64,000 nucleotides of DNA from Schmidtea nova. Lineage: Eukaryota. The notes under the pieces were generated by a model. It was given only the letters and a program-made list of their open reading frames with translations. It was not told where the DNA came from and made no database searches. The DNA is taken from assembly GCA_044892505.1 (NCBI GenBank), contig CM097882.1, positions 465,620,001 to 465,684,000 of the forward strand. Direction: 5' to 3'. A program made the position numbers and the translations under genes. Shown here in pieces: positions 14,401 through 64,000 of this stretch; within the stretch, counting starts at the first letter, position 1; each line of letters starts with the position of its first letter.

Positions 14401-17400
14401 GGCCACTAGATCTTAGACTGTGGTTGGTGTTAAGTGTTCATAGTAGGAATGCCGTTCGTATAACAGTTATGTGTAAAATGTGTTAGATCTGCCTCGTGGC
14501 CAGTCGCTTATTAAACTTGATGTTGGATTGCAAATAAATAAAATAAATTAATAAAACTAATAATTCATTGGCATTAAATTTTTCAAAGAGAAGTTGGCGT
14601 CATTTTGAACAAGAAACAACAAAAAAACGGTATGTTGCTGTTAACAATTTGTGTACATATATTGAATTAAATAAAAATAAATTGAACATTATCATAATCA
14701 GATGATCAGAAGATAATAAATGAATATTTATTTTAATTGTTATACTTGAGATTACTGATTACTGTATAATTACTAGATATATTATAAATAATTGGATAGA
14801 AAATTAATTATCTTTTGCGAAGTTTTCCAATGTTTTTAATTTTTTGATTTTCAGATCATGTCAGGAAGAAAATTGAGTGGCAATTTGAAATATCGTTAAA
14901 ATAACAGAAATATGGACAAACATAGAAAAAGTTGAATATTTAATTAGTTAATGAGGGCAAAAATTACGCAACATTGTACACACAAAATTTATTAGAATTA
15001 ATAATAAATATTTGAAAAATAAATTTTAAAGTCAATTTTAAATCAAAACAAATAAATAATTCAGTTATTAAAAAAATAATAATTCATTTATTAAAATAAA
15101 CATATAAATTAAATTATAAATTATTTTATTTAATGAAGAGAATGCGTGGGCGTAACACAAAAATAGTATAACTAGGCCTACGGAAATCATTCTTTTAATC
15201 AATTTTTAACCTTTAAAATTTGGACATTTTGAAAACAACTCTACCAGCCAGAACCAGTCATTGTTTATTAATTCTTCTGAACAAATCGAACAGGAACCAA
15301 TACGTATATTTCAGGGCTTGTTTTGTAAGTTGTTCATGATATTATGGTAATTATTAAGCTGTTATTCGTAATAGATATTAAATATTTTATTTAGAATTTT
15401 ATTTTTTATTAGATCTTACTATGCTCTGGCTCATTTGATTTTCCAGGATTATGTTAATTTTCTAAGTAGCTCTGTCGGGCCACTAATCACAAGTTCCAGA
15501 TGCGTTTGAAAAACCGAACTGAAAAGTCGGAACGGGCCTCAGACCATTCTCTTATTAAATTTTATAGATCTATTAGGTCAAAAAGGAATTAGGGGGTGTA
15601 ATTGGAAAGTGAACTAGTAGGTAAAGGTGGGACGCCATTTAATATATTTTAGAGAATAAATAGGTGTAAATGTTAGATAACATAAAGATGTTGGTCCAAA
15701 ACTGCAAATTGTTTAAATGAAGCGGTAACACAACAAGTAGAGAGCGCGCAAGATTCTAATTTAACCAAAGCATCAAGTAAAATCGAAGTAGTTAAGTGAA
15801 AACACACCTAAATATTAAAGTGGACCAAAGTGCATTACCAAGGCCTCGGCGAGAAACTAAAGGTTAAAATTATTAAATTGGTAATAAAGTTAAAACCAAA
15901 TTTAACCTAGCAAGATAGACATTAGGTATGGGGGATAAGTAGAATTTAGTTAAATACATTAACACAAAAATATAGGAAATTAAAAACATCGGGAAAATAA
16001 TAGTAGTTTAGTCAAGAACAATGAGAATCGAATACCCAGAATAAAGGTATTGATAAAAGATTATTCGATCCCCGAATTGAAATTGTGATGATATGCTTGA
16101 ATATATGCTTGGGAATAAACTAAAAATGCGAATATGCTAGTTTTCTTCTGATAATATAATGTATAGTGATTGATGGAAATAATTGACTCAATTATGTTTT
16201 AGATTTTGATCGGAAAAGTCAAGAATTCAGTGACATTAAGGTACGAAAAATATCGCGAAAACCCCAAAGAGCTTTAACACTTTTTGTACGAATGACTGTA
16301 TTTATTCTATTCTGTTTGTTCTGGTGCTATGTGCATCGTAAATGGGTCCTTGCATGAATCGTTGATATTTTGATCTGGGAAAATGGGTCAGTTTGATACC
16401 ATAATAAATTTATATTGATAGATTGTTAATTTTGGAATTCAGATTGAAATATTATTGAATGCTTACAAATAAATTGTTGAAGAAGGGACAAAAGGGCATT
16501 AAACCTTCTATCGGTAGCTCTTGGACCCATGAGATATTCGGTCAATCATAGTTTCGAATTTTTCGACGCTCACTGATTGCGAATACCCACCCATTTGTTG
16601 CATTACGAACGTTACATTGTGACGGCAACAAGATGGTTATTCAAATGTTTTATGTGTTGAGTTGTTGATGTGAGCCATAGCAACGTTAAGGTCATATTGA
16701 CGATCAACAACCCACCAAAGAGACGTTATAGAAAATTAGAACTTGGTAATTTAACAAAACCTTGAACAGATAAAATATTATGCCCTTAAGTCATTCAATC
16801 AGCAGTAGGAACCTGAAAGAGAGAATTTAATGAGGAGCAGTTATGGCAACGAAACTCACCTGCTCATTGAATTCATAAACCACTGTATAAATTACCAACA
16901 TAGCTCACCAGAGAGTAATAATGAGAAAACGAGTGATATAGTTTTCAACATTTTCATGATGGTGTGTAAGTTACCGTAAACCATAATGACAACAATTTTA
17001 AATAGCTCATACACCAACACTATCCTTGGCTACATGAGTGTTTTAAAAAAGTTCTTACATACTTTTGTTAATGAGTTTTTTTATTCATATTTGAAGAACT
17101 CTTTAACTCGCAAAATCTATTAAAGTAGAGTTGCCCACCTTATTGAGAAATTTCCTTTTCAAATTCAATTTTACTTCCTATTCAAAACATCATTTTATCT
17201 TATGAATTATGCTGTAACAAAATCTGCCCATTAATAAATGAAAAACCTATGATATAAAAAATTAATTTAATTTAAAAAATTATAAATTAATTTCCTAAAT
17301 GTTATAGTAATAATATTTCTCAATCTGAGTTTTCTAAATATTTAATTTTCTGAAATAATTTAATAAATTAATTAAAAATACTTAGTTTAAACTCACTTCT

Positions 17401-18115
17401 TCACAACCTTGAAATATCATTGTGCTTTTAATTAAACAAATATGTAGTTAAATCCTTTATTTAATAAATACAAGGCAACAGATTTTTCTGTAATTGCTAT
17501 TTAACCATTGGTAAGTTTTCATTATAAATAATTTTGTAATATAAATTAATATATATTAATATAAATTAAACTAAATTATTGCGAAATCTACATATAACTC
17601 GATTGCACTATGTCAAACATTTTATGAAAAGAAATGTTATTTCAGAGAATATTTTTATTGAACATTACTGCTTAGACTTTAGTGTTATAATTAGGTATAA
17701 AATACTATTTTTCATAAATTTGAAAAGTAATAAAAATTGAAAAAATAATCATTATTTATTTAATCATTCAATTAAAAAAAATTTCTAACATATGGTTAGC
17801 GGTCTCCAAGGAACCATGGCGCTAAACCTACTAATTTTAGTTTTTAGCGTTTTGTGTTAGAAAGATTTTTACCAAAATTATAATTATAATCTCAAAATAG
17901 TTTGATAATTATAATTTTCAATTATTAATAGAAATTTTCCCTTTAAGTAATTTTTATCTTTAGACACCTAAATTCCCCTAATATTTTCCTTGTTACTTTT
18001 ACACGTAAACCCAAATAATAAGCATATATTTATAAAAAAAACATTTGTCGGATGACTTATTTGTTTTAAACAAAAAAAGCTTGTGATTTTTTGTGATACC
18101 CAGTGCAAATCCCCA

Positions 18116-18157
18116 ATAGCAGACTAGTTTCGAGCTTTTGGCTCTCATCAGTGCTAT
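18116..18157 (-). ncRNA. Minimal type I hammerhead ribozyme, canonical core
   Basis: ATAGCA-CTGATGA-GAGC-CAAAA-GCTC-GAAAC-TA-GTC-TGCTAT: 6-bp stem I, 4-bp stem II, palindromic stem III ACTAGT, GUC cleavage site. Confidence 0.93.
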
Positions 18158-18495
18158 GCAGGAGACGCGAAAATTTCTCTTCGCGCCAGATAAGTATAAA
18201 ACAAAGTTGAAAGATTTTTGTTATATACTATACCTGGTACACTGGATATCACATCACTTGAATATGCAAGGTCCTACAGATAATTCGTAACTTGCAAACA
18301 TGGCGTATGAATTTCATTTTCGCCTCTGCGCACTAAAAGTGTTCAACAGAAACTGTTTGCAAGCGCACCCGACTGCCTTAGCTTCATTATTTCAATTTCT
18401 TGTAATATCTTTTGAAAAAAACATTTGTCGGATGACTTATTTGTTTTAAACAAAAAAAGCTTGTGATTTTTTGTGATACCCAGTTCAAACCCCCA

Positions 18496-18537
18496 ATAGC
18501 AGACTAGTTTCGAGCTTTTAACTCTTATCAGTGCTAT
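18496..18537 (-). ncRNA. Hammerhead ribozyme copy with G8A core variant
   Basis: ATAGCA-CTGATAA-GAGT-TAAAA-GCTC-GAAAC-TA-GTC-TGCTAT; the C3-G8 pair is broken. Confidence 0.8.
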
Positions 18538-18649
18538 GCAGGAGACGCGAAAATTTCTCTTCGTGCCAGGCAAGTATAAAACAAAGTTGAAAGATTTTTG
18601 TTATATACTATACCTGGTACACTGGATAAAACATCACTTGAATATATAT

Positions 18650-20881
18650 TTATAAGCTTATATTCATTTATGCATAATATTAATACAGACAAACAATCGC
18701 TGTATTTTACAAAATTATTACTCCATATAAATTCAGAAATGTAAGAGTTTATCATTTCATAACGAGTTCCATCATACTCTTGAATTTTCGTTGAGGACGG
18801 GACCACATAGTTTCGACTGACTGTGTGGACGAATGTATTTTCTGGATGAACAAAGTTCTGTGAATGATTGATAGACGTATGTTGATAAATACCACCTCTG
18901 AAATTCCCAAGTTGTTGATAAGTGGCGAAACAATCTGACATGATGCGAGTGCCAGGAATAATATGTCTAGCAATGAGTGGCATAAGTGTTTGAATCTGTC
19001 GGTTTAAGAACATTTGTAAGAAACAGTTTTTCGTTTACGTTAGATACCCCCAAATAGCCACACAGGTTTGCGTAATCTGCCTTTTCTGAACTTTCTTTTG
19101 GAAATGACTGTTTCATTAATTTCAACAACAGTTTGACTCACAAAAATCATGAAACCCATCAATTTCTGGAGTATTATTCTCACACCACTTGCAAGGAATA
19201 TCTTTAATGAAATTATACCAATCAACACAAACACCACGTGAGACTGAGATATCTTTACATTAGGTGACGAGGTATTTCTCGACTCCATTGAAAGCATGAA
19301 AATACCAAGGCTTGTAGAGAGAGGTGAGAGTTAGAAAAAAATGAGTCGTTGCGAATGCTGCGGGAAAGGTTTTTGCAGGCTTTTCACTTCCAAACATACT
19401 TATCGGTTTTCATGTTCTCATCCTGAAAGGCGCAGGGAATATTACATATAACACATGTGCAGGAATTTCGGAGAAGTCTATGAGTGGCGAGCCATTTGAT
19501 ACATTGAAGTGGTTCAGTAATAGAAGGGACGATTGTAAGTGTTGTCCATACTTCATTCTGAATAGCTTCATGACTTAAAATATCTTCTGCTGACACAGTC
19601 CAAGTTGGTGCATAAGGACGTCCAGCAGGCATGTTTGTAATTGTAATTTAACGAGAAAGTGACATCTACTCATAATCTATAAATTAAAACAATTTCCGTT
19701 CAGATAAACTAATTTTAATTAATTTACGTGTTTTATTTAAACAAAAATATTAGGGAATTTACGTGTATAAAGATAACAATTACCCTTTAAAATTTAAAGA
19801 ATAAAAACAAATAATTTTATTGAAAATAATAAGTGTTAGTGATTAATATAGTACCTTTACCAGTAAATACTGTTACCAGTAAATACTGTTACCACCTCTG
19901 AAATTCCCAAGTTGTTGATAAGTGGCGAAACAATCTGACATGATGCGAGTGCCAGGAATAATATGTCTAGCAATGAGTGGCATAAGTGTTTGAATCTGTC
20001 GGTTTAAGAACATTTGTAAGAAACAGTTTTTCGTTTACGTTAGATACCCCCAAATAGCCACACAGGTTTGCGTAATCTGCCTTTTCTGAACTTTCTTTTG
20101 GAAATGACTGTTTCATTAATTTCAACAACAGTTTGACTCACAAAAATCATGAAACCCATCAATTTCTGGAGTATTATTCTCACACCACTTGCAAGGAATA
20201 TCTTTAATGAAGTTATACCAATCAACACAAACACCACGTGAGACTGAGATATCTTTACACACCAGGTGACGAGGTATTTCTCGACTCCATTGAAAGCATG
20301 AAAATACCAAGGCTTGTAGAGAGAGGTGAGAGTTAGAAAAAAATGAGTCGTTGCGAATGCTGCGGGAAAGGTTTTTGCAGGCTTTTCACTTCCAAACATA
20401 CTTATCGGTTTTCATGTTCTCATCCTGAAAGGCGCAGGGAATATTACATGTAACACATGTGCAGGAATTTCGGAGAAGTCTATGAGTGGCGAGCCATTTG
20501 ATACATTGAAGTGGTTCAGTAATAGAAGGGACGATTGTAAGTGTTGTCCATACTTCATTCTGAATAGCTTCATGACTTAAAATATCTTCTGCTGACACAG
20601 TCCAAGTTGGTGCATAAGGACGTCCAGCAGGCATGTTTGTAATTGTAATTTAACGAGAAAGTGACATCTACTCATAATCTATAAATTAAAACAATTTCCG
20701 TACAAATAAACTAATTTTAATTAATTTACGTGTTTTATTTTAAACAAAAATATTAGGGGAATTTACGTGTATAAAGATAACAATTACCCTTTAAAATTTA
20801 AAGAATAAAAACAAATAATTTTATTGAAAATAATAAGTGTTAGTGATTAATATAGAACCTTTACCAGTAAATACTGTTACC
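18650..20881 (-). mobile_element. Second Merlin/ISXO2 family, with the 5' 1 kb present twice
   Basis: Fragments give CVICNIPC, VCVDWYNF, VISKRKFRKGR, VWLFGGI, RIMSDCFATY, INHSQNFVHP, TQSVETMW; terminus GGTAACAGTATTTACTGGTAAAGG at 20881 and again at 19893; 18891-19893 duplicates 19891-20881. Confidence 0.88.
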
Positions 20882-21257
20882 GTTTACCGGTAAAAGTACA
20901 TGAAATTTACCGGTATTCTGAAAAAAAATACTTCTTTGGCATATTACTGTGTTTCACCGAAGTTCATCCCGGCTGAAATTCAACCCTAACATGATTTGTT
21001 TGCAATCTTTGAAAAAATTATATTGGAACCCTAACATCCAAATTCAGCCCTGACTAGTACTTTCTAATATTTATTAAAAAAAAATTTCGTATCATATATA
21101 TATTAATTCTAAATAAATTTGAACAATATTAGACTTAATTGATCAATTAAAATTTATTAAAAGAAAATAAGTTAAAATAACTAAAAATAAGTTAAATAAG
21201 TTAAAATAACTAAAATAAGTTACTCAATTGAATATTAAATAAAAATTGTTGACAAAA

Positions 21258-23319: not shown

Positions 23320-23486
23320 AGTAATGATATTGCAATAAAGGCCAAAGACCAAATGTGAAGCAGTTCAGAGTATATTGCGTAATTCAATCACCGTGTTAGT
23401 TATTGCGCAATATACATAACTATTTAAGAGTGATCACTCTGTGTTTTTGGTAAATAAATCTTTAGATGGAACCGATTGTTGTAACT
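23320..23486 (+). repeat. 5' LTR
   Basis: AGTAATGATATTGC...GATTGTTGTAACT; matches 27777-27943 except one C/T. Confidence 0.95.
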
Positions 23487-23499
23487 GGCGACCACGCCG
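23486..23499 (+). promoter_or_regulatory. Primer binding site
   Basis: TGGCGACCACGCCG overlapping the LTR end by 1 nt; cognate tRNA not determined. Confidence 0.8.
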
Positions 23500-24618
23500 A
23501 AAATATTCACACAATGACGACTCGAGGAGAAGGGAAAAAATCTGCAAGAGACTTACTACCAAAACGTGCTCAAGAACTCTTGGATATGGAAATTAGAAGA
23601 TACGACGGCAGATGTACCAAAGAAGCTGAAAAATGGATACATGCAATTGATGATTGGATCGCTAGAAATGACTTAAAGAGGACAGAAGCATTCGATTTTC
23701 TCCTTTGCGACGAAGCGGCTACGCTGTGGACAAATTTCAAAACAGAAAAACAACAGAAAAAGCAGCTAAAGAATGGTTTTCCGAAACATTTACTATTAAA
23801 TTGACTATTTTAGACAAGATTAAAGAACTTGCTGCAATTAGACAAGATGAAAATGAAAGATATGCAACCTTCGAAATCCGGGTATTAAACTTAGTGGATG
23901 AAGTTATTAATTCAGGAATGAGGGTAGAGGAAATTGCCAATGAAATTATAACTGGACGAGTCAGAGACAGAAGATTAAAAGATGCGCTAACAATGAAACC
24001 AACGATGACCGCAGAAGAACGAAATCAACTGGCCAAAATTTACGAAAAAGTGGAATCAAAAGAAAAGACGGAAGAAATTATGGTAATAAAAAAGAGTAGT
24101 TACGCAGAAGCAACAAGGAGAAGGAATCCAGAAACGTTTACAAGAGAAACAAATGGAAGTAATGGCAATATATTAAGAATCCAAGGAAATTACAGAAGAG
24201 AGAATTTACCAGATAATTCTTATAGCAGAAATAACGAAATAAATAATACAGTCGAACGGAATATGCAGAGAAGGACACCAACGGTTTCGCTTAAACACAT
24301 CGCCAAGAGATTATACAATCGATCTAGAGGCCTTCCTGATCCAAGAAACGGCGAATTACAGTCAGGTCAATGTTTTTGCTGTGGAGAATATGGGCATAGA
24401 AGATATGAATGCCCACTAAAAGATAAATGTTTGATATGTGGTAAGGGAGGACATAATTTTCGTGATTGTTATTTATTAAGAAAGAAAGAACAGCAGAACT
24501 ATGAGAACAAGAAAATTATATCTTGTGTGCATGATGAAGAAAACGGAAGAAATTACTCGGATGATGCAGAAACCAGAGAATCAATTAGTGATTATGCAAT
24601 TCATGATGTGGAAACTGA

Positions 24619-24625
24619 AAAAAAC
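24619..24625 (+). promoter_or_regulatory. Putative -1 ribosomal frameshift slippery site A_AAA_AAC
   Basis: Canonical X_XXY_YYZ heptamer in gag frame; the pol (-1) frame opens right after the TGA at 24616-24618 and stays open into the protease. Confidence 0.75.
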
Positions 24626-27600
24626 ACGAGGAACTCTATTGCATACATTTCGTCAATGGGGTTGTAAAGAAAGAAAATCGGAATGACAGAGCAGAAGGAA
24701 TGAGGTATGTAACATCAGATGGAAGAGAATGGAGCAAGATGATGATAAATGATGTTGAGATTGAGATGTTGTGGGATTCTGGAGCTTCGATTACAGTGAT
24801 GAATGAGGAAACGTGGAATAAATTTGGTAGTCCACGGTTAAGCAGTAGTGAAATCAAAATATGTGGAGTTTTTCCAGGAACTCAAAAACCACTGGGATGT
24901 ACAGAAGCAAATGTTTATTGGCACAATAAGATTAGGAGTATCAAAATAATTGTTATTAAAAACATTTTCCCAGGTTTTATTGGTGGGGTAGATACTTTGA
25001 AAGCATTTGGAGTGCAGTTGATGGAAATTAACAATATTGAATCCGAGACAAAAATTAGTAATTATACTGATGAGGAGAGAAGACAAAAAGCAAAAAATGA
25101 ATTGGGAAAAAATGAATTGCCAACAATTAACAAATTATTAGATGAATTCGGGTCAATATTTATGGCAGCTAGATTTGATTTAGGATTCACAAGAATCGTT
25201 GAACATGAAATTAATACATCTGGGAATCCAACAATGCAATTTCCAAGACGACAACCGATGCATCTAGAACAGAAAATTGACGATATGATAAAAGAGTTAA
25301 CAAAAGCTGGAGTTATAAGACGCTGTAAAAGTCCATGGAGCTCCCCATTAGTCGTAGTGGGGAAGAAAGACGGCTCAATAAGAATGTGCGTAGACTATCG
25401 AGAGCTGAATAAGATAACAGAAAGAGAATCTTTCCCTATGCCCAACATATCTCAATTACTCGATAACCTATCAGGATCAAAATACTTTTCTTTAGATCTT
25501 GGACAAGCATACTATCAGGTAGCATTAGCAAAAGAAGCGCAAGAGAAAACGGCTTTTAGTTCCAAAGAAGGTCAATTTTGTTTCAATCGACTTCCGTTTT
25601 GACTATCAACGGCTCCAGCAACGTTTCAGCGATTAATGCACACGATGTTAGAGGGTATATTGTTTAATGGAGCAATTGTTTATTTAGACGATATTCTTGT
25701 ATATGGCAAGGATCAGTCTGAACAGGATGAGCGATTACGAGAAGTTTTTAAAAGAATACAAAAAACAGGACTAAGAATAAATCCGGAGAAGTGCGAAATT
25801 TACAAAACAAAATTAAAATTCCTTGGTTATACCATCAGTGAAGATGGAATACAGACAAATTCAGAGAAGATCAAGTCAATTACAGAAGCTACGAAACCGC
25901 AGTGTGCTAAACAACTTCGATCATTTCTGGGTTTGACAAATTATTATAGACGATTTGTCAAAGATTATGCTAAAATAGCAGCACCCTTACATGCAGCAGC
26001 TTCAGGTTGTGATAAAACAATCAAATGGTCAGAAAATTGTGAAAACAGTTTTAGTCAGCTTAAAGAAGCCTTAACACAAGCTCCTATTCTTGATTTCCCT
26101 CGTATAGATCGGAAATTTATTTTGGATACTGATGCCAGTTTTGAGGCTATTGGAGCAGTTTTGAGTCAAATAAAAGAAGACGGTTCAGAAATAGTTATCG
26201 CATACGGTTCAAGAAATCTGACGGCCCATGAAAAGGGATACTGCGTAACCAGGAAAGAATTATTAGCGTTACATGAATATGTTTTATATTTTAGACAGTA
26301 TTTATACGGGAAAGAATTCGTGGCCCGAACAGATCACAAGGCTTTAGTATTTATGAACACAAACAAAAAAGCAATAAGTCCACAATTTCAGACATGGATG
26401 GCTAACCTATCGGAATATGATTTCCAATTGAAATACCGGAAAGGTGAAGAACATGCAAACGCAGATGGATTATCAAGGATCGGGGGTAGTTTGTGTGCAC
26501 AATGTCAGACAGCACATGTACAACATAAACAAGAAAGATCAAGGGTAAGATACATCAATTTGATACAAAAAACACATACAATGTTGGAGATTATGGAAGA
26601 ACAGAAGAAAGATAAATTGTTCCAGGACGTGATGGAAATTCTTAGGAATCAGATAGATGTTCGAAAGGAATCGTTTCAAAATAGTTTTTTATTCAGATAT
26701 AAAGATCAGTTAAAGATATCGGATGATATGCTTGTATTGGAAAAGGACAAAATAGATCTAGTGGTAATCCCAGAAAGCTATCAATCTAAATTAGTGATTA
26801 AATACATGAAGATTTATGTCATGTTGGAACTAAGAAACTGTTTCATTATTTGGAAGGGAATTTTTTCTGGCCGAAAATGCAAGAAACCGTTAAAGAGATA
26901 GTAAAACGATGTGTCACTTGTGCAAGAAGGAAAATAGACCAAGGAAAGACAAAGGAAATTTTAATTCCACACGAAAGTTCTGAATTTCTAGAACAGATTG
27001 TTATGGATGTTGCTGTCATGGAGAGAACTTCAACAGACAAAAGGTATGTTATCGTTATTATTGATAAGTTTAGCAAATTAGTAAGTCTAACGGCTACAGC
27101 AAACCAAGATGAAAAAACTATTTTGAAGACACTAATGAACAATTGGATTTACAAATATGGTAAACCTCAAAGTATATTGACGGACAGAGGGCGAAATTTT
27201 GAAAGCAAATATTTGAAGGAAAAATTAGAACAGCTGGGAATAAAGCAAGAATTCGCTACGCCGTATCAACATCAGTCGAATGGCTTGGTGGAAAGAGCTA
27301 TCAGAACAATGAGGGATTTACTTGTGACTACGATGAAAGGTGGCTGTGCTGAAAAACAGTGGCACGAACTGCTGCCTCGAATTGAATTCAGTATTAACGC
27401 AACTTATCAAAGTGCTACAAAATTTTCACCATTTGAGATAGTATATGGACGGAAAATAACATTACATGCTAATTCTAGACTCAAACATCAAATACGAGAT
27501 ATTTCAGAAGAAGCACAAACGAATAACAAGCATGCTGCTCAAAAGATGAGGAAATTCGAGGATGACAAAAGAATTAAACGACATTTTGAAGTGGGGGAGG

Positions 27601-27767
27601 AGGTACTAGTACGACGAGAACCACATAGAAGAAACAAAAATGATATTCAATATGATGGTCCATATAAAATTCTTAGATTTGTGTCAGATCACCAAGTTGA
27701 ATTGCAATATCCAAATACAACGCGACACCGAAAAATCGAATGGTTAAAGAGATGGCATCAATCTTAA
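24619..27767 (+). pseudogene. pol: pol (PR-RT-RNase H-IN) with one stop and one frameshift
   Basis: LWDSGAS, SPWSSP, CVDYRELN, RLPF*LSTAPATFQR, YLDDIL, LDTDAS, VMDVA, TDRGRNF, QSNGLVER, YDGPY. Confidence 0.93.
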
Positions 27768-28845: not shown

Positions 28846-29144
28846 CAAAAAACGGGCATGTATGAGTTACTTTTAAAAATAAAATTTTTAGAAATACTTG
28901 CATGATTTCCAACGGTTACCATTCTATTAAAAGCGACCTTTGAACTGCGATTGCTGCGAGATGAATTTTGCGATGTTTTGAGTATTTTAGTTTGTTTTGA
29001 ATTCAATTTTGATGATGATTGTTTAGAAGAACCCATGGATCGGCTGTTGCTAGATGAAGCATTGTCTGATGAATCATGTTCGTTTGATGTGACTACTGAT
29101 AGTATGACTTAAATCGTTTATGAGAGGTAATCTTTGAATAAAAT

Positions 29145-29790
29145 CCATATTTGAGTATGCATCGGCAGAGTTCGGTGATATTTTAATGAATTCTCGGTAA
29201 TGATTTAGGGCGCTCTGTAAATGGCCTTGTACTTGCAACATATTAGCCGGGTTGGAATGGGAAACGGTAAATTCTGGATAAATCTCCAATGTCTTTTTAT
29301 CAATATTCATTGCCTCTTTTTTGAGAGCTTGTTCCCGTTTAATATTGGCCAAATTGTTAAATGAATCTGCGTGGTTTGGATTCAATTTCAGAGCCATATT
29401 ATAACACTTTCAGCTTTGAACAAATTACCTTTTTCTTTCATTGCGTTGGCCAGATTGCAGAATGCGTCAGGAAAATTAGGTTGTAAGTCGATGATTTTGA
29501 GATAACTGTCAATAGCCTGGTCATAGAGACCCTGTTCGTAATAGACACAAGCAAGATTCTCGTGCAAAATAGGATTATCAGGATCCAAAGTTAATGCTTT
29601 AATGTAAGCTGCAACGGCACGATCGAATATCTTTGCTTCTTTGAAGACATGTCCAAGATTGACATGAGCATTTAAGAAATTAGGCTCGAGATTGACGGCC
29701 TTTTCCAAGTGATGAATTGCGAGCCAAATGTCACCTTGTGTTTGAAAAATGTATGCAGTTGCAAATGCCAGATGTGCATTAGGTTCATTT
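29145..29790 (-). pseudogene. OGT: O-GlcNAc transferase TPR fragment (internal TPRs), frameshifted
   Basis: [73 protein letters not shown] closely track metazoan OGT; no catalytic domain. Confidence 0.92.
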
Positions 29791-29799
29791 ACATTGTCC

Positions 29800-30110
29800 C
29801 TGAATTGGAAAGCCGGTTGATTGCTCCCGAAATTGAATCCGAACGGTTCAGCTGCCACAGGTGGCTGTTGTTGAGCACTACCGGCAAAAGTAGCACTTTA
29901 CATATTATTGGATGGGTTGCTACTGGCTCCGAATGTGAACTGAGAACTCGAAGGAGCACTGAACATATTTAATTGGCTGATGTTGTTCGTTAAAGAAAAA
30001 GGAGTTGCAATTGGATTTGACTATTGGCCGAAATTCATTGTCGAAGAGACCGGCGCTGCGAATAACCCAGATGATAATGATGCGGGTTCGTTTTCTGACA
30101 CCATTTTCGT
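29800..30110 (-). pseudogene. FG-nucleoporin-like (Nup153/Nup1-type) low-complexity fragment
   Basis: In frame: [45 protein letters not shown]; two stops. Confidence 0.65.
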
Positions 30111-31559
30111 GGTTTTATACGACGAATTGATTTGATTTCTCTTTGCCATAAAATTATTAGATAACTGTTGAGCAGTTAAATAGGCAACGTTTTGAGATAA
30201 AAGTAATGGATCATAGTTATATGAATTCATCATGACCATATTTTCTAAATACTTATTGTGCGTCAAAACATTAAAATCCGATGTCATATTAGAGCTTTGA
30301 TTTATATTGATATTTTCATTTGACTTTACATCAAGATTTCCCATCTGATCAGTAATTACATTGATACCATTTTCTACGTTACCAGCCATGTTAATAAAAT
30401 TCAAAACTAATTTGCTTAATAATTTATATTTTTTAAAAAAAAACTAAATTCTAATTTACAAAATATGATTATATAAACAACTGGTTTATATCAAAATAAA
30501 AAGTTGATCACAATAAATGTTTTTTTTTAAACTATAGTCTTTTACTCATTTCTTTTCTTTTCAATACTGTTTTTAGCTACTGAAACAAAAAATAATAAAA
30601 TTAGAAAATAATTGAACATTTATTCGATTTAATAGTGGTTGCTTCTTTGAATAATTGTGCTTCAGAAATTGTTGTGGTGTTTATTGGAAGTTGCTGCTTG
30701 AATTATCGTTCTTCAGAAATTGATGTTGCGTTTACTGAATTTTCTTTTCTTGCTTGATATTCAGTTTCCAAAAAGAGAGCCGTTTTTCGTGATTTAAACA
30801 AAAACTTTTTATAATTCTTTATATATGATTTTATCTTATATATATATTATGATATTTAATTTAATTTACTTTATATATAAATATTTATAATATGAATATG
30901 ACGGAGTCACTACACTCTTCATTCTTTTTTTCAGTTATTTTTTGCTATGCTAGCAATGGCCAAATACTAGTTTTTAGAAATTTGAGTAAATTTGAGAAAA
31001 GAAAATATACTATCCATTCGGAGTTATTTAAAACTGCTTCACAATTTGAACATTGAGAAGGCTTTTCGTTGCAATCAGTATTGATTAAAGTATCCAATTC
31101 ATCTACAGACTTGATTATCAGTTCTTCATAATCTATATCGCTATTATGAGCAATTTCCAACTTTTTCCACACATTCCGACATGCCCGCAGGACAAAATAA
31201 AAACTCCACCATATATAGCAAACTTTTATTGATTTTTTATAACTATTGTCATTATTTTAATCAATCACCTAATATTTACCGTATTATTTTGTTAAAAATC
31301 GATTGTAAAACAAATTGTAAAACAACTAAAGATTTTACTATAATTTATGTGTCAGTAAACTTCCTTAATTTACTATAACAAGTAAGTTTTGGCTAACTGA
31401 TATTCAAATAAGCAATGACCATATTATTTACTTAAATCATCATATAATATACTAAACATGTGTGTTTTCACTAAAATAAAATCATCCATATTAACACATA
31501 AAATAAAAGAAATAGTATTTACGACCCCACCCGCTAAACTTTCACAAGAAACATGCGAT

Positions 31560-35238: not shown

Positions 35239-35730
35239 TTACAGAATTTTGCAACATGAAAAATTTGATTTGAGGATGGTATGTTGCTTCGATTTAGAAA
35301 GGCAGTCAAGAGCCGCACAAAAACAGCCATCTTCAGAATTTTGCAAATTTTTAAAACATTTTAAAATGTCAGTTTTATCGACTCGACTAAGATTATCACC
35401 CAAAATCATCAAACAAACTAAATACGAATAATTCATCGTTACATGACCAGACATGTAAATCTGGTTTGTGAGATGACAATTACTCGGGAAAAATCCACCT
35501 CGAAATCCCTCTAAACGGCCAGATTGATAATCTAATATTTGCTGCTCATAAATCCAGTCAACTATTTCATTTTTATCTGATTGCGAGATATCATCAATAC
35601 GATTTAACAAATCGAGACCAGATAGAGCAAATTGTAAAATGATAACTCTTGATGTATCATATGATTCAAAAACCGTTGGAATATAACTGACAAACTTTTT
35701 AAAGTACTTGGAAATTAAATCTTGATTCAT
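35239..35730 (-). pseudogene. PGGT1B: Geranylgeranyltransferase type I beta subunit, N-terminal fragment
   Basis: YDTSRVIILQFALSGLDLL, IVDWIY..Q, GFRG, SGHVTMNYSYLVCLMILGDNLSRVDK, LQNSEDGCFCA; homology stops at about 35300. Confidence 0.88.
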
Positions 35731-38426
35731 TTCAATTTTATTGTTAACTTATCTTTTCAATTTAGTTAAATTTCGTATAATTCCACAAACAATTCAATAA
35801 GAATACCGTTCACAAATATTATTATTAATCTAAAATCAAATTGTTACAAAAAATTCAATTTAACAATTAACAATTTTAAACAACACAAAATTTTATATCG
35901 TTAATTTAATTTTATAATACATAAGTTTTTATCCTAAATTTAAGTTTTTAATATCACACATTTTATTTTTCTCTCTTAATTTTTCTTTCAATTTTTCTTT
36001 TAATTTTAATTTTTGTTTTCTTTACGATTTAGATTTATTGTTGTTCCTTAGGAAATTGACTCAAAATTTAAAGTCATTTCCTAAGTTACTAAATCACATA
36101 AGGTCAGGCGGAACAAAGATGACGCTCAGAGTATGATAATCTTGTTCAACAAAACATACAAGGACGTTATTTACAAGGACATAAAGTTGGTGCAGAGAGG
36201 AACCCGTTATGTAGTGAGTTGGAAGAAACGATTTTTAATGGATTTAACACCAACGCTTTTGTCGTTAAAAGATCAGAAATTCAAAGTCTTGTAACCCAGT
36301 TGCCTCTACAGTTTGATATTTTTTTGGATAAATTTAAAACTTTACAACACTGGGTTGATGGGTTTCTATTAAGGCGTGAAATGTCTTTAAGAAGGTCAAT
36401 AACATCATTTAAGTTAGATAATACAAAGGTATTATCATTTAATATCAGCTAATATCAGAAAATAGTGTATTTGTCAGAATTTTTGGAGAAGCGCTATACA
36501 GTTACCTAAGCAAAGAAATTTCAGTAAAAATGGCGAAATACGAGAAAGCTACAAATGAATTGCCAGTAAGTGTTGGCGGAAAACTACGATTTATGGAATC
36601 AATAACCCGAATACTTCTGGAAGAAAAAGTTAAACCGAAAATCTTACAATGTAATCGATTATTAGCCCCATTTTATCTTTTAGCACAAGATTGATGGATA
36701 TCGTTACCAGATTACCGAGGAGTGAAAACGGCAGACAAATTCGAATTGACAAATTTAGAATACTTAATAAATTTTACACCAATAAATAAAATGACACAAA
36801 TGGGTTTATATGCGAGCGAAGACATCGAAGAAGCACAAAAAATTTGTTATTTCCGTCAAAAAGGAATGTGTGATTTCAGAAATGATTGATACGATATTGC
36901 CGAATGGAGAAGAAAAAGTTAATTACGAATACTTGCAAACACCTGACCATTTTAAACGAGCTACTTACAAAACAATGGAAAAGATTTGGAGTAAATTTAT
37001 GTTTTTGGGACAAGCATGTGCAGGTCTAATTGGTATTTATGTAATTGTGGTAACCATAAAGGTAATAATATCACAAGTATTGTCCGCTCACAGGATAGAT
37101 ACAATTTCTGGATGGTCATGAAAAATGATTATTGGCTGTATTCCATTTTTGGCGAGATTCTTCATTACAAGTCATCACTACAAGGAAATGTCAAATGTTC
37201 GGGCGCAATTAAGAAATAATCAAAAAAGTAAAGAATCACTATGCGATCACGAGGATTAAAATAATGGCCATAATAACGAGAGCAATGCCGACAGATCAGA
37301 GCAGAAAATCTTTCGAAGGAGCATAATGAAAAGTAGAATAGAAACGAATCCAGGTTCTTGCTTGAACCAATGCCAAAATTAACCGGAATCGACACTCTTT
37401 CTCGATGGTACACACCGACATACGTACCAACAGCTCTAATATACCCAAGTGAAATATTGAGAGAATTGAAGCCAGTTGATGAGATAAAAGTCGAGTTAGA
37501 AAAGATTGAACCATCAAGTGCCGAAATTGAAATAAAGAACATGCTTGGGTTACCATGTAGTTACACATTAATGATAATAGAGTTAGGAGGAAAATAACCT
37601 AGAGTAGCCATATATTTTAATGAACGAAAAGTGAAAGCGTTATTGGACCCAGGTTCGAGTCACAGCATAGTATAGGAAAGTTTTTTTACGAAACATGGAA
37701 AAGCAAAAATAAAACCAACAACAAAAGTTATTAAATCAATGACGCATAACGTATTAAATAGTATTGGGAAATTGAAAGTCAAATTGAATATCGGAAATCA
37801 GGAAGTAACTCATTGGGTGTCAGTATTGAGAAAAAGACCTGGCATGGATTGGCATGGACATCATAGAACAATTACAAGGAATCTCACTTGACTTAAAGAC
37901 AGGAAAATTAATAAAAAGGCAGATGGGTGAAGTAGTACATGAAGTAGTAGAAGTCATTTTAAATCAAACATTGGAAGTATCACCAAAAAGTGAAGTAATA
38001 TACTACGCCAATGTAGAGAATGTTTCCGAAGACGAGTGCATATTTGAACCAAATCAAAAATTAATAGAAAATTACGACGTATCTATGTGTGACGAAATAG
38101 TGAAAATTAAAGACAAAATCGTGCCAGTAAGAATAGCTAATTGTAGCACAAAATCGATTCAGATGAAACCCAAAACAGTTGGGAAAACTGACGAAAATAA
38201 AAGAGGAAGAAGCACAAAAGCTACCTAGAAATATCAAGATCTATAAAGAACCTCAAGTAACAAGTGACGATTTAACGGATGTACAAAAACAAGAATTTGC
38301 TGCATATAGAAAAGGTATAAAAAAGCATTTGCGAAACATGAGTACGATATAGGACTCACTCAGATAATTGAACATGAAATACCATTGCTTGATGAAACCC
38401 CGATAAAAATACGACCGTATAGATTC

Positions 38427-42722: not shown

Positions 42723-43855
42723 ATGGAACAGCTACAATGGGCCAGGGAAACTTGCGGCAGTTACCTAAAGATGATGAAAAATCATGCCGGCCAAAGAAAA
42801 TTCCGGATGACCAACAACTTACAAATCCCAAATTACCTACGGTTGAATGATAGAAAATGAAAGTTCAATTATTCAACATCAACAGAATATCAAAATTCCA
42901 AATAACAAATGAATTAAAACTATCAAAAAAGGAAGAATACCCTATCCATGTAATCAGGGGTACGGTAGAAAAGCTAGATGAAAATGGACAAATATAGTGG
43001 GAGATCAAAAAACATTCTTCAAGCAAAATTAAGGATCCAGCAATTGGGAAAATATTACGAGTAGCAAACGAGGATGCCACAATTGTAGTGGAAACTAGAA
43101 TAAAAAACGAAATTGATGACGTACCCAGCAAGGTCCAATGTAGAAAGAAAATCATGAACTCTTAAAAATAACAAAGGAAATGTTGAAGAGAAAATTATCG
43201 TTTATTCGGAAGGAAATGGACATAGAAAAAATTCGCAGTAGGTTATTGTTCATTGATGTCGAAAATGGGAGCACTGATACATGAAAGATCATCCCCTTGG
43301 CGGTGGCCATTATGATCTATCATGGGGAAATTGTGAAAAATGTCTTCTTGACTCCTAGATGAAGACTCAAACATTTTAACTCAAACATCCATGGGATAAC
43401 GGAGGTGGCCAGCCGAAACGAAAATGACAAGTATATAGAAATGAAGGAGATTTAAAAACTGGCAATCGAAAAAATAATAGAAGGAGACGATTTACATGCA
43501 GAATTGCAATTCTTAGCAATATGGTTCAACCATCTTTTTGGCATTCAGGATCTAGCCACAGCTCAAGTTTTGCAATTGAAAGGAGTCATAAAAAGAGAAG
43601 TAACCATCAATGGGCAATGGTTCAAATTATCAATAGTATGCGACATAAAAATGCGAAAAGGAAAACATTCCGCATTGGAAGATACGGAATCAATTCGGAG
43701 AATTTACTTGGCTTTAGCAAGTCAATGGCAGGATGATGTGGAAAATGAGGAGACAGCCAGCAAAAGAAAATGTTCATTAGAAGATTACAGGAAGAGAAAA
43801 GCTCCAACAACCAGTGAGTTTATGAATGAACCAAAAGATAAAAGGAAATCTCTGT
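42723..43855 (+). pseudogene. Accessory ORF with DEDDh exonuclease domain (decayed)
   Basis: Frame from 43201: LLFIDVE (ExoI), VFLTPR*..HGIT, IIEGDDLHAEL, GIQDLA, GKHSALEDTESIRRIY (ExoIII); N-terminus NNLQIPNY resembles NQICIPND in ORF 53854-55953. Confidence 0.8.
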
Positions 43856-46742
43856 GCCGTTCGTCTGCGGATAATATGCAGTCGAACGCAGTCGTTTGAT
43901 GCCAAGCTGTTCGGATAAAGAGGTAAAAAGCTGTGATTCAAATTGCGCTCCTCTGTCGCTAATAATTTGTCTGGGAATGCCATATCGTGAAACCCATTCT
44001 GAAATGAAAGATTCAGCGACAATATTTGCTGAGACAGAACGTAGAGGAACAGCTTTACACCATCTTGTCTTCCTGTCTATAATTGTTAAAAGATACGAAA
44101 AACCATTGTTTGACCGACAAGATCAACGTGAACGGCATCAAATTAATTGCCTGTTGGAAAGTGCATGTGCGGTGGTTTAACGTGTCGAGTAATTTTGTCT
44201 GATTGGCATTTCAAACACTGACTATCTCGTCTCATAAAGGGCCAAACGACTTGGTTTCTTAGCAGCTGATAAGTGGCGGTCGAGCCAGGGTGACCTAAGT
44301 CGTGAACTGCACGGAATGCCTGTTTTCGAAGCTCGAATCCAAGAATAGGTCTAAGAGTTCCCGAAAGTGAAGAGTCTAAATCAATGCGGTCTACGTTTGA
44401 TTTATGGGGTTGAAAATATTGTAGATCAGCTTCGGTTGGTTTATTCTCGCAGAGTGGAACTAGTAAACAGGGGTTCCAAGGAGATAGCCTTGGCACTACG
44501 TTAGAGAAAATCAGCTAAAATGTTCTCTTTACCCGCTATGTGTCTGATGTCACTGGTGAACTCGGTAATGAAAGAAATTTGACGTAACTGCCTGGGAGAG
44601 TTATCCTTCATAGTTGTTAAATGAACCAACGGCTTGTGATCAGTGTAAACTGTAGTATATCTACCTCCGAGCAAATTTTTGAAATGTTTAATCGACAGAA
44701 ATATGGCTAAAAGTTCCCGAATGAACGCGGAATATTTGGTTTGAGTTTCGGTTAACTTCTTAGAAAAGAATTCACGAGGTCGAACTATACCATCTTGCAC
44801 CTGTGTTAACACAGCGCTTACTGCGACGTCGGACGCATCCGTGGTTAGACTGAAAGGCAGAGAATACTTTGGGTAAGCCAAAGTCTGAATTGATTCAAGT
44901 GCTTTTTTAGCTTCGATTTCTCTGTCCATTTTATAATATATCGCTTTGATCCCGAACTGTGCTAAGTCAAAGGAGCCAGAATATCAGATATCCTAGGTTT
45001 GAACCTGTGGCAATAATTGACTACGCCTAAAAAGCTGTGAAGCTGTGTGACAGTTTCCAGTTTAGAAAAATTTCTGATGGAATTTAAACGTTCAGTTTGT
45101 GGAGCTATTCCATCGGCGGATAAAGTGTGTCCCAGAAATTTTACACTTGATTGAAAGAATTGACATTTGGAATGATTTATCTTGAGTTGATGTTGCTCTA
45201 AGATTTTAACGAGTTTAGATAGATTCTGTTTATGTGTTTCGGCATCAGGCGATGCGACTAGGATGTCGTTGACGTAGGCTACTACATAATCTAGCCCGGA
45301 TAATATGTGATCGATATGTCGCTGGAATGTTTGTGCAGCGTTCCGTAAACCAAAAGGCATTCGCAGGAATTTGAAGAGACCTGTAGCAGTGATGACAGCT
45401 GTTTTTTGCATATCAGATGGAGCGACAGGAATTTGGTGGTATGCCTTCGTCAGATCGATCTTAGAAAATATTTTGTTACCTGTGAATCTGGCTAACGAAT
45501 CCTTTATAAGAGGCATTGAATATGAGTCGTGCTGTGTGACGGTATTTAAACGACGGTAGTCGCCACATATCCCGAAAGAAGAGTCTTTCTTAGGGACGAA
45601 ATGGATCGGAGAGGCCCAAGGTGAAGAAGATCTTTGGATCACTCCTGCTTGTAACAAATTATCATATTCTGTCTTCAGAAATGTCAAGTTTGCTCCGGAT
45701 ATCGGGCACACTCTCTCTATCTGAGTGGCGGTGAATTCAGAGTAAGGATTTGATGATAGAACCTTTGGTCTAAAGATCTTGTTGTATGAGTGAAGTTATC
45801 ATCGAAAATTCGATTAATGTTGAGTTTGTTAACAAAGTTCGTGAATAGATCGATAGAGAATGTATTGCATTCAGCAGTTTGATTAGAAGCGTCATTTAAA
45901 GACGTGGAATTAATATTGGGATCGATGACGGACAGTGAGCGTTTGTTGCAATCGATGATGATGTTAAAATTTTCAAAAAAGTCGATGCTCAGATCGATTC
46001 CCATTTCTGTAATTACACCCGATCTGACAAATGTGTGCGGAAACTCCTAACCTCTGATGATAATAACATATCCATGGAGTTTTATTACGTGTGTGGTCAC
46101 GCGACTGTGATCTCGGTCGCCTTCGGTCCGTTGATGTAGATCTTGCCTCAAGCTTCTGAACTTTTCTAGTGAGATTTTTGATTGCCGATATAAGAGGATT
46201 AAAAGAATGATCCGTAGAATTTTTAGTTTTCGTGGGTGTTGTTACTGAAATTTGGTTGCAGAAACCTGTATTTGGTTCTCGAGAAACCTCGGCTATTTTA
46301 TCAGCCATATTGGCGATATCGGCGAGTGAAGTCGAGTTGGAAACTGCTAAGATGGCTTGTGTTTGTTGAGGCAAGTCAGAAAGAAAAAAGCGACAAAGAA
46401 TAGCGTCATCTTGAGTGATGCCTTGCTGTAGCGATTCGAGGTTGTCTATGGCTTGCTTCAGGAATTCGGATGGTCGTTAGGAACTTAGGTGTTGAGTCTT
46501 GAAATATTTACAAAATATTTCTGCTTTTAGTTCCCTGAAGTTATTGATTATGGCATTTTTGAGGGAAGTAAAAGGATCAACTTCGGCAAAAAGGTTTGGT
46601 AAGAGATGCGCGAGTTAAGAAAGGAGTTCGATGGGGAGAAACGAGACAAGTTGGTCGAACTTTTGCTGTGAAGTCGCGATGTTTCTGGCGTGGAAGGATC
46701 GTTCAAAAATAAATAACCATGCGTTCGGTGATTCGTTTACAT

Positions 46743-53853: not shown

Positions 53854-55953
53854 TTAAATATCAAATGGATGTTGATATCCTGGTTGGTGCTTGGATTGAT
53901 TGTGCACTGGGTACTGATTGATATTGGGTTCTGTTTCTTTTTTAATATTGGTTGCATCGACAGGCTCTGCATAAATATTCACTCTGTATTTGTTGCCCCC
54001 CACACTATAATTTTCTGATAGGAGGAATGTATTGATGGGCTTACCTTCATCATCCAACATTCCTCCCCGGGCCGTCAAAGTAATGTCCTCATTTCCTTTG
54101 TCACACAATATTAAATCAATTCTTTTCTCTTTTATTTGAATTGTTGTTTTTCGAAATCCATTTTTTATCGCAAGGTTTATCGTCTCCTCGTGCTCAATTT
54201 GTCTTCCAAAATGAGTGCAGAGATCTTTTTCTGAGACATACTTTTTGTCTTTGTCTATTATGAAGTCTGATTCTTCTGGTTCTGTCCAGTCGGCTAACAT
54301 TTCAACTTTTGGTTCTGGTCCGATATCCTCTTCCATTATGTTGTATTTACTACTTGTTGATGGTTCTTCACTATCTTCTTCCATTTTGATGTCGTTACTG
54401 CTGGTTGAAGGTTCTTCTATGTTTTCATCTGCTGAGAAATATTCATCGTCTATATCACATTCGTCCATTCTTTCATATAGAATATTTTGAATTTTGGGTT
54501 CTGCTTTGATTTCCCTAGTTGGAGCGATAAGTGGTATTTCTTCTTTTATGATCATGAGTTCATCGTCGTCACTGTCCATGAGTTCTTCCATGAATGACTT
54601 TTTTGGTTTGTAATGATTGGTTTTTGTTAATTCCCCATGGGACGGCTCCATGCCTTCTCCATCTTCATATTTACTTTCTATCTCACCTTCTGCTTCGCTC
54701 TCTGTTTCGTTTTCGAATATTGCTTCTAGTTGTTCTTCTCCATTTACTTGTTTCCTTTTAAGAAGTGTTGCGGAATCCCATTTGACAACTTCTTCCCATT
54801 TATTTTCTGTGATATCGTAGATCACTTTTAATAACATTGTGGTGATCTTTGTTGAGAATGGTTCTGGTTGTCTCAATATATCATTTAACTTTTTATCTTT
54901 ATGCCAACTTTTATGGTAATTGATTACCTGGTAAGCCAAATTTGATATTTTTATTTTTGGTGGGGCCACGTTTTTTACAAAAGAACACATAAATCGATCC
55001 TGTGCCATTTCTCTTATGCCCATAATGTTGTCCAGATCTATCGTCAATAGTTTTAACTTATCTATGATGTTGAATCCAACTATGATCTTTCCATAGAGAA
55101 TGTTTCGAATTTCATTTAAGGCTTTATATTCGTCTTCATTTCCAATTATGTTTTCTTTTGTAGCTTTAGTTTTTTCCGTGTAGAATTTTTCTACTTTCGT
55201 TCTTGGGGTGATGAATTTGTTATACAGAATTGCTCCTTTTCTGCTTCTGATACAAATTTCCACTGGTCTGAGATTTTTGTTTATATCTTGAATTACTTTT
55301 ATATCCACCATTACAGTTAATGAATGCCTTTCTTCTGTCGTTAACTCTTGATTCGTGAATGATATCTTCTGATTGATCATATCTTCATTTATTTGTAGGA
55401 TTGAATGTATTGGGTTTAATTTTATGAACGGATTTGGGATTGTCGGGATATATAGCACTTCGATTGCTATCACACATGGTAGGTTGTTCATCTGCACTGT
55501 CAACTCATTGAAATCGTTTGACATGCTTCTGTCTTTTCTTATTAACTTGATAACTGCTGAACAGTTGCTTGTGACAATTAACGGGATTTTATTTTGACAT
55601 ATTGCAACTTCTGTTTTTGTCATGTGGAATATTAGTCTGTGAGGGATTCTCTGGTTTTTTGCAACTTCTTTGTCGACGTTTTGGTATTTGTCGAAGGTTC
55701 CAATAAGCTCCCTGAGTTTCACTCTTCGGGCCTCATTGAATTTTATCAGATGCATTTCCCGTTCTTCTATTTCGACTTTCATGTCGTTTGGGATACATAT
55801 TTGATTTGGGAAACTGCGAATTGTAATTGGGGTTCCATCCGTACATATCTTGTTCTGTAGATTTTTGTAAAAACTCATGTTTAGTTTGTTTATAAAACAA
55901 GTATATTTCTGGTAGGTTCTTGGTTGATTGAAATGAGGTTGATTTTGATTCAT
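53854..55953 (-). CDS. 699-aa accessory protein with REX4/ISG20-like (DEDDh-fold) pseudo-exonuclease and acidic region
   Basis: Residues about 212-385: VMVDIK..RPVEICIRSRKGAILYNKFITPRTKVEKFYTEKT..IRNILYGKIIVGFNIIDKLKLL..IREMA; catalytic residues mostly lost. Confidence 0.75.
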   Translation of the reverse strand: MNQNQPHFNQPRTYQKYTCFINKLNMSFYKNLQNKICTDGTPITIRSFPNQICIPNDMKVEIEEREMHLIKFNEARRVKLRELIGTFDKYQNVDKEVAKNQRIPHRLIFHMTKTEVAICQNKIPLIVTSNCSAVIKLIRKDRSMSNDFNELTVQMNNLPCVIAIEVLYIPTIPNPFIKLNPIHSILQINEDMINQKISFTNQELTTEERHSLTVMVDIKVIQDINKNLRPVEICIRSRKGAILYNKFITPRTKVEKFYTEKTKATKENIIGNEDEYKALNEIRNILYGKIIVGFNIIDKLKLLTIDLDNIMGIREMAQDRFMCSFVKNVAPPKIKISNLAYQVINYHKSWHKDKKLNDILRQPEPFSTKITTMLLKVIYDITENKWEEVVKWDSATLLKRKQVNGEEQLEAIFENETESEAEGEIESKYEDGEGMEPSHGELTKTNHYKPKKSFMEELMDSDDDELMIIKEEIPLIAPTREIKAEPKIQNILYERMDECDIDDEYFSADENIEEPSTSSNDIKMEEDSEEPSTSSKYNIMEEDIGPEPKVEMLADWTEPEESDFIIDKDKKYVSEKDLCTHFGRQIEHEETINLAIKNGFRKTTIQIKEKRIDLILCDKGNEDITLTARGGMLDDEGKPINTFLLSENYSVGGNKYRVNIYAEPVDATNIKKETEPNINQYPVHNQSKHQPGYQHPFDI

Positions 55954-60705: not shown

Positions 60706-60981
60706 TGTTTCGACTTCTAAGCTATAACAACCATATATCTTTTTAGGTTCACAATGACAATTCTTGTTTTCTCTAGGAATTTTGATTTCTATATTTTCTT
60801 GTAGCTCTTTTAGTTGTTCTCTTTGGTTTTCATATAGTCCTTGTTGTGGTACATTTCCTTCATGTGATATATGCGCTTTAATTATTTCCTCATCGTTTTC
60901 ATCATCTACCAGTAATTGCCTTTCTTCATTCCTTTGGACTTTTATTAAACGTATTTCCTTGTCGTGTTTCGCCGTAATAAG

Positions 60982-63920: not shown

Positions 63921-64000
63921 AACATTTCAACATCTCTTTTATTTCTATTTCTAATTCAAATACTCTCGTTACATTTTGTCTCTTTACCATCATTGGTAAT

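What the first reader, a model, noticed from the sequence alone, without database searches (positions are those of the whole stretch)
18034..18645. Retrozyme-like unit: two hammerheads exactly 380 nt apart
Direct repeats each hold a type I HHR with GUC sites at 18122/18121 and 18502/18501 on the minus strand. Cleavage at both would release a 380-nt non-coding monomer. That matches the size and layout of metazoan non-LTR retrozymes, which form circular RNAs and are thought to use PLE RT. The first HHR is canonical; the second has G8A and may need dimeric rescue or be dead. PLE RT remnants are in the same window.
Basis: partly seen in the sequence, partly recalled or inferred. Interest (0 to 1): 0.75.

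Follow-up and report, generated by a model that had tools for sequence, protein, structure and literature searches.

The report
Hammerhead retrozyme with Penelope-type insertion ends
This is an ageing 1.6-unit copy of a 380-base non-coding repeat whose self-cutting ribozyme motif occurs thousands of times in this animal genome, and the repeat's insertion ends copy the pattern of the genome's Penelope-like retrotransposons, which likely spread it through a predicted small circular RNA.

Summary
Observation confirmed. Window 18034-18645 (minus strand) holds two type I hammerhead motifs exactly 380 nt apart; the 5' one has G8A. It is a 5'-truncated, 1.6-unit insertion with a 12-bp target duplication inside a Merlin transposon.

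It belongs to a large non-LTR retrozyme family: 3,677 exact hammerhead cores genome-wide, in dispersed arrays of up to 46 or more near-identical units, none continuous with a coding Penelope-like element (PLE).

The useful result is in the insertion ends. They cluster at two U-tracts about 37 nt apart, 50-90 nt past the cut site, mostly beside (TA)n or (TAA)n. Head-to-head insertions carry one end of each kind (19 of 20 classifiable). Two co-resident intact PLE families follow the same rule (8 of 8 each), yet none of four PLE families shares sequence with the retrozyme.

This supports PLE mobilisation, which was proposed earlier on other grounds. A circular template is likely but unproven. This copy is probably a poor producer. 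Cleavage, expression and circles were not testable here. The scan noted similar PLE-type ends before, on a ribozyme-free repeat in another genome (e1-7881736). Verdict: new member of a known kind.

The parts
18034..18645 (-). Retrozyme insertion, about 1.6 units: 5'-truncated at unit position 237, 3' end at the second U-tract (S2, about +87)
18122..18501 (-). 380-nt unit between the two predicted cleavage sites; carries the canonical core; 36.8% GC; 72% paired when folded as a circle
18490..18544 (-). 5' type I hammerhead with G8A (18526); predicted cut 18502/18501
18110..18164 (-). 3' type I hammerhead, canonical core, palindromic minimal helix III; predicted cut 18122/18121
18644..18655 (.). 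Target-site duplication, copy at the element's 5' end (12 bp, 2 nt shared with the element)
18024..18035 (.). Target-site duplication, copy at the element's 3' end
   Evidence: uninterrupted Merlin copies show this stretch once
17947..20900 (-). Decayed Merlin (ISXO2-like, PF12762) DNA transposon with a 1-kb partial tandem duplication; the retrozyme sits behind its transposase stop
2404..4219 (.). Head-to-head remnant of PLE family A (RT on + strand; inverted 3' piece with a minimal hammerhead near 2404-2436 on - strand); candidate partner, not linked to the retrozyme
16..743 (+). Remnants of a second PLE family (B-like)

Best explanation
This is a decaying 1.6-unit copy of a high-copy 380-nt hammerhead repeat (non-LTR retrozyme) whose RNA is predicted to self-cleave into monomers, would likely be ligated into circles, and is likely copied into AT-rich DNA by the reverse transcriptase and endonuclease of a Penelope-like element. 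Shown here: family size, tandem and head-to-head arrays, two fixed 3' ends about 37 nt apart, AT-microsatellite targets, target duplication, and intact PLEs with the same end pattern. Inferred: transcription of multimers; cleavage through double-hammerhead folds, because helix III is only a short palindrome; ligation by a host RtcB-type ligase, as shown for other animal retrozymes; nicking of both target strands by a PLE protein; priming of one cDNA at S1 and one at S2; rolling past the junction to give multimers; 5' truncation or joining of the two arms. This particular copy likely yields little monomer, because its 5' core carries G8A.
For: 3,677 exact cores. Arrays of 7, 21, 26 and at least 46 units differ by 0-1.4 positions per pair within an array, against a mean of 18 between regions. 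56 of 61 3' ends in a position-ordered sample fall at +29 to +120, a window that is 24% of the unit. Of 27 head-to-head insertions, 19 have one S1 and one S2 end, 1 has two S2 ends, 0 have two S1 ends and 7 have one end elsewhere; 19 of 20, p=2e-5 (5 of the 27 were classed by hand). PLE-A follows the rule in 8 of 8 and PLE-B in 8 of 8 insertions with both ends visible. 78 of 112 3' ends abut (TA)n or (TAA)n-type repeats. A PLE protein nicks AT-rich DNA on both strands and starts at two internal sites that bound the 30-40-nt 'tail' (PMC11167929). Most 3' ends lie downstream of the cut site, so the cDNA crosses it and a cleaved linear monomer alone cannot be the template. Variants fixed in all units of one insertion (L122: 5, L041: 9) and a subfamily SNP fixed in 20 of 22 multi-copy regions fit a one-unit bottleneck.
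Against: No parent or partner PLE was identified: no DNA similarity to families A-D. This locus is a mosaic: a two-base family variant is in the 3' repeat but not the 5' one, which one monomer circle cannot give. L042, L046 and L149 are mixed too. The two arms of head-to-head insertions share only modestly more derived variants than random pairs (4.0 vs 1.1 per 1000 sites; 14 events). In vitro the anole PLE does not need hammerhead cleavage and uses unprocessed RNA. 8 of 9 Xenopus retrozyme dimers did not cleave in vitro. Helix III is not formed in the predicted ensemble of this locus; the double-hammerhead fold lies 4.7 kcal/mol above the minimum. Covariation in the hammerhead helices did not exceed shuffles.
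Confidence: 0.7

Rival explanations
1. Same PLE mobilisation, but the template is a linear, uncleaved multimeric read-through transcript, or a linear monomer on which the RT jumps. The hammerhead and any circle are by-products.
For: The anole PLE uses unprocessed RNA and hammerhead mutants insert normally in vitro. Mosaic insertions exist, including this one. Homogeneous source arrays would also give homogeneous daughters.
Against: Many arrays are each fixed for their own haplotype, which needs a one-unit bottleneck or strong homogenisation. 136 of 165 full units keep an exact canonical 36-nt core. Other animal retrozymes accumulate as circles.
Confidence: 0.25
2. The repeat is a detached PLE pseudo-LTR or truncated PLE 3' end that later grew locally as satellite DNA by unequal crossing-over.
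For: Proposed for Xenopus, where 24 of 57 retrozyme families matched known elements, nearly all PLEs, at their termini. The longest arrays show variants repeated in non-adjacent units, a sign of later DNA-level shuffling (L061, L151+152).
Against: 0 of 85 insertions run on into a PLE reading frame; 13 have unrelated PLE pieces within 400 nt. The four PLE families carry different, minimal hammerheads. Dispersed arrays have their own PLE-type ends and inversions.
Confidence: 0.08
3. A SINE-like element mobilised by a LINE reverse transcriptase.
For: 5' truncation, a 12-bp target duplication and AT-rich targets also fit LINE-type target priming (established knowledge). LINEs were named as possible partners.
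Against: Two internal 3' ends about 37 nt apart, outward-facing 3' ends on both sides with one of each kind, and multimers match the PLEs here. No poly(A) tail is seen at the junctions. LINE families of this genome were not examined.
Confidence: 0.04

Closest known systems
Metazoan non-LTR retrozymes (PMC7229834; bioRxiv 10.64898/2026.07.22.740005)
   Same: Type I hammerhead in each 150-450-bp tandem unit, low GC, target duplication longer than 4 bp, strongly self-paired predicted RNA, coexistence with PLEs. The 380-nt size is close to the mussel repeats (350-390 bp).
   Different: No sequence match to a resident PLE terminal repeat was found, unlike many Xenopus families. PLE-type two-site ends and head-to-head arms are documented here. 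Expression, cleavage and circles are not shown.
Newt/axolotl satellite hammerheads (HHR_Amex1 type, PMC7229834)
   Same: Very short palindromic helix III that needs a dimeric fold for efficient cleavage.
   Different: Different host and unit sequence; activity untested here.
Penelope-like elements with GIY-YIG endonuclease (PMC11167929, PMC8557442, PMC4209133)
   Same: Hammerhead upstream of two internal RT start sites, 30-40-nt tail at one end only, partial tandems, inverted 5'-truncated arms, AT-microsatellite targets.
   Different: No RT or endonuclease; canonical-type rather than minimal hammerhead; 380 nt rather than 2.7-3.1 kb.
Non-autonomous Chlamys elements such as MRC1 (PMC8557442, passage)
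   Same: Non-coding, multicopy head-to-tail insertions ascribed to PLE machinery.
   Different: Those resemble their autonomous family at the 3' end; that clade is described as lacking canonical hammerheads.

Membership tests
non-LTR retrozyme | Type I hammerhead motif in each unit | tested here: met
   136 of 165 full units have the exact canonical 36-nt core
non-LTR retrozyme | Short tandem unit of 150-450 bp, dimers to multimers | tested here: met
   unit 377-383 nt; arrays to 46 or more units
non-LTR retrozyme | Low GC (<45-50%) and highly self-paired predicted RNA | tested here: met
   36.8% GC, 72% paired as a circle; z=-6.85, 0 of 100 shuffles as stable
non-LTR retrozyme | No conserved protein coding | tested here: met
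   a 61-codon frame from the AUG in the core is kept in only 14 of 51 regions; no PLE frame is continuous with 85 insertions
non-LTR retrozyme | No true LTRs; target duplication longer than 4 bp when present | tested here: met
   the 236-nt repeat is part of the unit and 5' ends vary; 12-bp duplication checked against uninterrupted Merlin copies
non-LTR retrozyme | No primer-binding site or polypurine tract | not tested
   no search was made
non-LTR retrozyme | Self-cleavage of the RNA | not testable with these tools
   folding only; covariation inconclusive
non-LTR retrozyme | Expressed as linear and circular monomer RNA | not testable with these tools
   needs RNA data or bench work
'active' retrozyme locus (criterion of the 2026 preprint) | [quoted passage not shown] | tested here: not met
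   this locus has one canonical and one G8A core; other loci of the family meet it
autonomous Penelope-like element | ORF with RT and GIY-YIG endonuclease | tested here: not met
   no such frame in the unit or continuous with it
PLE-mobilised element | Two 3' ends 30-40 nt apart, tail at one end only, inverted truncated arm, AT-rich target | tested here: met
   resident PLEs
PLE pseudo-LTR derivative | Sequence similarity to the terminal repeat of a resident PLE | tested here: inconclusive
   none with families A-D; the PLE census of the genome is incomplete

The most novel reading that the evidence does not exclude
The retrozyme is not a shed piece of any resident PLE but an independent ribozyme circle that mimics the PLE two-site priming signal. 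Retrozyme and PLEs here share one cycle: a ribozyme-made circle (380 nt, or 2.7-3.1 kb and protein-coding) is bound by a PLE protein dimer, which primes one nicked target strand at S1 and the other at S2 and rolls out multimers on both strands. The one-S1-plus-one-S2 rule and the near-perfect 10-copy arrays of the intact 2,876-nt PLE would be its genomic footprint.
Probability: 0.3. Interest if true: 0.75.

Novelty: new member of a known kind. Interest (0 to 1): 0.45.

Why it matters
The locus itself is an ordinary decaying copy. The family matters because the enzyme that spreads animal retrozymes has been inferred only from co-occurrence and terminal-repeat similarity. Here the insertion ends carry the PLE-specific two-site signature and obey a countable one-of-each rule, also seen in two intact PLE families of the same genome. 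That gives a ready test with an existing in vitro assay: four candidate PLE proteins, one 380-nt RNA, predicted start sites, and circle versus linear template.

Tried and rejected
Expression: no RNA holder listed. The four listed runs are of unknown kind and were laid as contigs on 15000-18409; they cover AT-rich flanks too and cannot show ends or circles, so they are not used as evidence.

Rfam at gathering score found nothing.

I considered that the spacer might be a GIY-YIG C-terminal fragment, a resemblance judged by eye. Rejected: the frame is not kept (14 of 51) and no PLE frame is continuous with it.

Parent PLE search: four families came from protein searches; 20 of 22 loci with longer helix II spacing were examined; and a PF01541 search was run, of whose 150 hits only 3 were fetched, giving two family-D relatives and one SLX1-like host gene, a name recalled rather than looked up. 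No parent was found; the census is incomplete.

An exact empty-site pattern found nothing; a similarity search with the Merlin flank gave the empty sites instead.

Covariation on 15 hammerhead copies did not exceed shuffles.

The high-depth repeat at 16480-16720 is not a hammerhead repeat.

Paper searches for G8A data and for a guessed host group gave nothing usable; the host was not identified.

The scan's notes hold nothing for this genome.

Full report
OBSERVATION. The minus strand of 18030-18645 holds a 236-nt direct repeat at spacing 380, 95% identical. My descriptor scan of both strands of the window found exactly two hammerhead motifs, with C17 at 18502 and 18122. Both have a 6-bp proximal helix I, a 4-bp helix II and a short palindromic helix III. 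The 5' copy has G8A (18526). Rfam found nothing at gathering score; the canonical copy matched Hammerhead_HH9 weakly (E=0.002, 24.1 of 52 bits). The 380-nt unit folds far better than shuffles (z=-6.85). As a circle it is 72% paired at 36.8% GC.

LOCUS. The element starts at unit position 237, runs through one full unit and ends at the U-tract near +87. A 12-bp AT-rich stretch is duplicated at both ends. Uninterrupted Merlin copies elsewhere show it once, so the element inserted into the 3' end of a Merlin transposon (PF12762). The two repeats differ at 12 of 236 positions and the unit differs from the family majority at 10 of 380. G8A occurs in this and 2 other of 80 regions. G8 pairs with C3: G8C kills activity and C3G/G8C partly restores it in a PLE hammerhead, and U3-A8 is a natural covariant. 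C3 with A8 is therefore probably inactive; this is an inference, as I found no direct G8A data. G8A lies outside the released monomer. In a double-hammerhead fold each core cuts the other copy's site, so the intact core would cut 18502 and the mutant core would be needed for 18122 (inference). That fold is 4.7 kcal/mol above the minimum, and two single folds are 15 above.

FAMILY. The DNA search returned 66 matches from 40 of 2,503 candidates. The exact 36-nt core occurs 3,677 times, control 0. I mapped 85 insertions or fragments: 44 from ranked hits and 41 from loci taken in order along C1 from the first 100 listed core matches. The ordered set ranges from 0.2 to over 48 units, median about 1.2; 20 of 41 are head-to-head with both outer ends being 3' ends. 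Among 165 full units in 51 regions, lengths are 377-383 nt and 136 have the exact core. Arrays of four or more units differ internally by 0-1.4 positions per pair, against 18 between regions; 2-unit copies differ by 0-11. No insertion runs on into a PLE frame; 13 of 85 have separate PLE pieces within 400 nt.

ENDS. 5' ends are scattered. In the ordered set 56 of 61 3' ends fall at +29 to +120, mostly at two U7 tracts, S1 (about +51-58) and S2 (about +88-92). Caveat: the set was chosen for holding an intact core, which favours ends soon after it, but that does not explain two sharp sites. Of 27 head-to-head insertions, 19 have S1+S2, 1 has S2+S2, none has S1+S1, and 7 have one end elsewhere. 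Five were classed by hand because the aligner ran into AT flanks. 78 of 112 3' ends abut (TA)n or (TAA)n-type repeats.

RESIDENT PLEs. The RT remnant at 3220-4059 belongs to a young family A: 2,876-nt unit, open frame of about 850 codons with RT and a weak GIY-YIG match, arranged in arrays. In one 10-copy head-to-head array, 7 of 8 measurable units are identical. Families B (2,698 nt), C and D were found from other remnants. Each has a minimal-hammerhead-like motif of the kind described for PLEs and two 3' ends about 30-42 nt apart (C and D read by eye). Where both ends were visible, A has one of each in 8 of 8 (22 loci examined) and B in 8 of 8 (10 regions). None shares DNA similarity with the retrozyme. 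Family A's end tracts look most like S1/S2, a weak hint only.

MECHANISM. Shown: architecture, ends, targets, homogeneity. Inferred: multimeric transcription, dimer-fold cleavage, host ligation to a circle (shown for coral, mussel and axolotl retrozymes), then PLE-driven target priming at two internal sites on both strands (shown in vitro for the anole PLE) and rolling synthesis. For a circle: cDNA must cross the cut site; private variants are fixed across units; a subfamily SNP is fixed in 20 of 22 regions. Against a simple monomer circle: this locus and three others are mosaics; arm sharing is modest; long arrays show later reshuffling; the anole PLE needs no cleavage in vitro.

KNOWN WORK. 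Non-LTR retrozymes and PLEs as candidate partners are published (PMC7229834, parts 1-4 of 6 read, through the discussion). A 2026 preprint argues for a PLE origin (10.64898/2026.07.22.740005, parts 1-3 of 5 read). A circular PLE template was proposed in PMC4209133 (parts 1-2 of 4). Two-site initiation is in PMC11167929 (parts 1-2 of 4). The one-sided tail and non-autonomous Chlamys elements are in PMC8557442 (12 passages). PMC5680766 was seen as 5 passages; all other papers as listings only. I did not see an analysis of retrozyme insertion ends in these texts or in the listings. Supplements were not read and may bear on this.

VERDICT. A real feature and a new member of a known kind. The locus is ordinary and probably crippled. 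The family-level end signature makes the retrozyme-PLE link directly testable. Interest 0.45.

Noticed in passing
G000 C2:112608051-112636601 (L106-L115): Intact PLE family A in a near-perfect array, 7 units on one strand and 3 on the other; the first AUG lies 7 nt after the predicted hammerhead cut.
   Followed up: partly
L166-L179: PLE family B: unit 2,698 nt, but the stop-to-stop frame is 903 codons, longer than the unit; AUG codons lie inside the hammerhead core.
   Followed up: partly
L180-L193; L194-L207: PLE family C has a U3-A8 minimal hammerhead; family D has a U3/G8 core and a UUU triplet. Both read by eye from printed sequence.
   Followed up: partly
L151+L152 (C1:29336400 onward): In a 46-unit or longer array, 7 units share a change that breaks the helix III palindrome, in an irregular pattern that suggests later unequal exchange.
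   Followed up: partly
L208, L217, L218, L222, L223, L224: Older, diverged hammerhead family with the same helix III, a longer loop 2 and different helix I; similar to each other mainly around the ribozyme.
   Followed up: partly
window 16480-16720: High-copy dispersed module of about 240 nt with a sharp end, 95% alike between copies (2,287 candidates); not a hammerhead; class not determined.
   Followed up: partly
window 18890-20881: 1-kb partial tandem duplication of the Merlin element; a second Merlin-like remnant lies at 11560-12372.
   Followed up: no
window 53854-63926 (-): Large LTR-retroelement-like region with long open frames (785, 1521 and 615 codons); the labels pol-like and envelope-like are by eye. 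Other Gypsy-like remnants lie at 23466-27767 and 43820-46476.
   Followed up: no
window 29074-30443 and 35239-35748 (-): TPR-repeat gene fragments and a prenyltransferase-domain frame.
   Followed up: no
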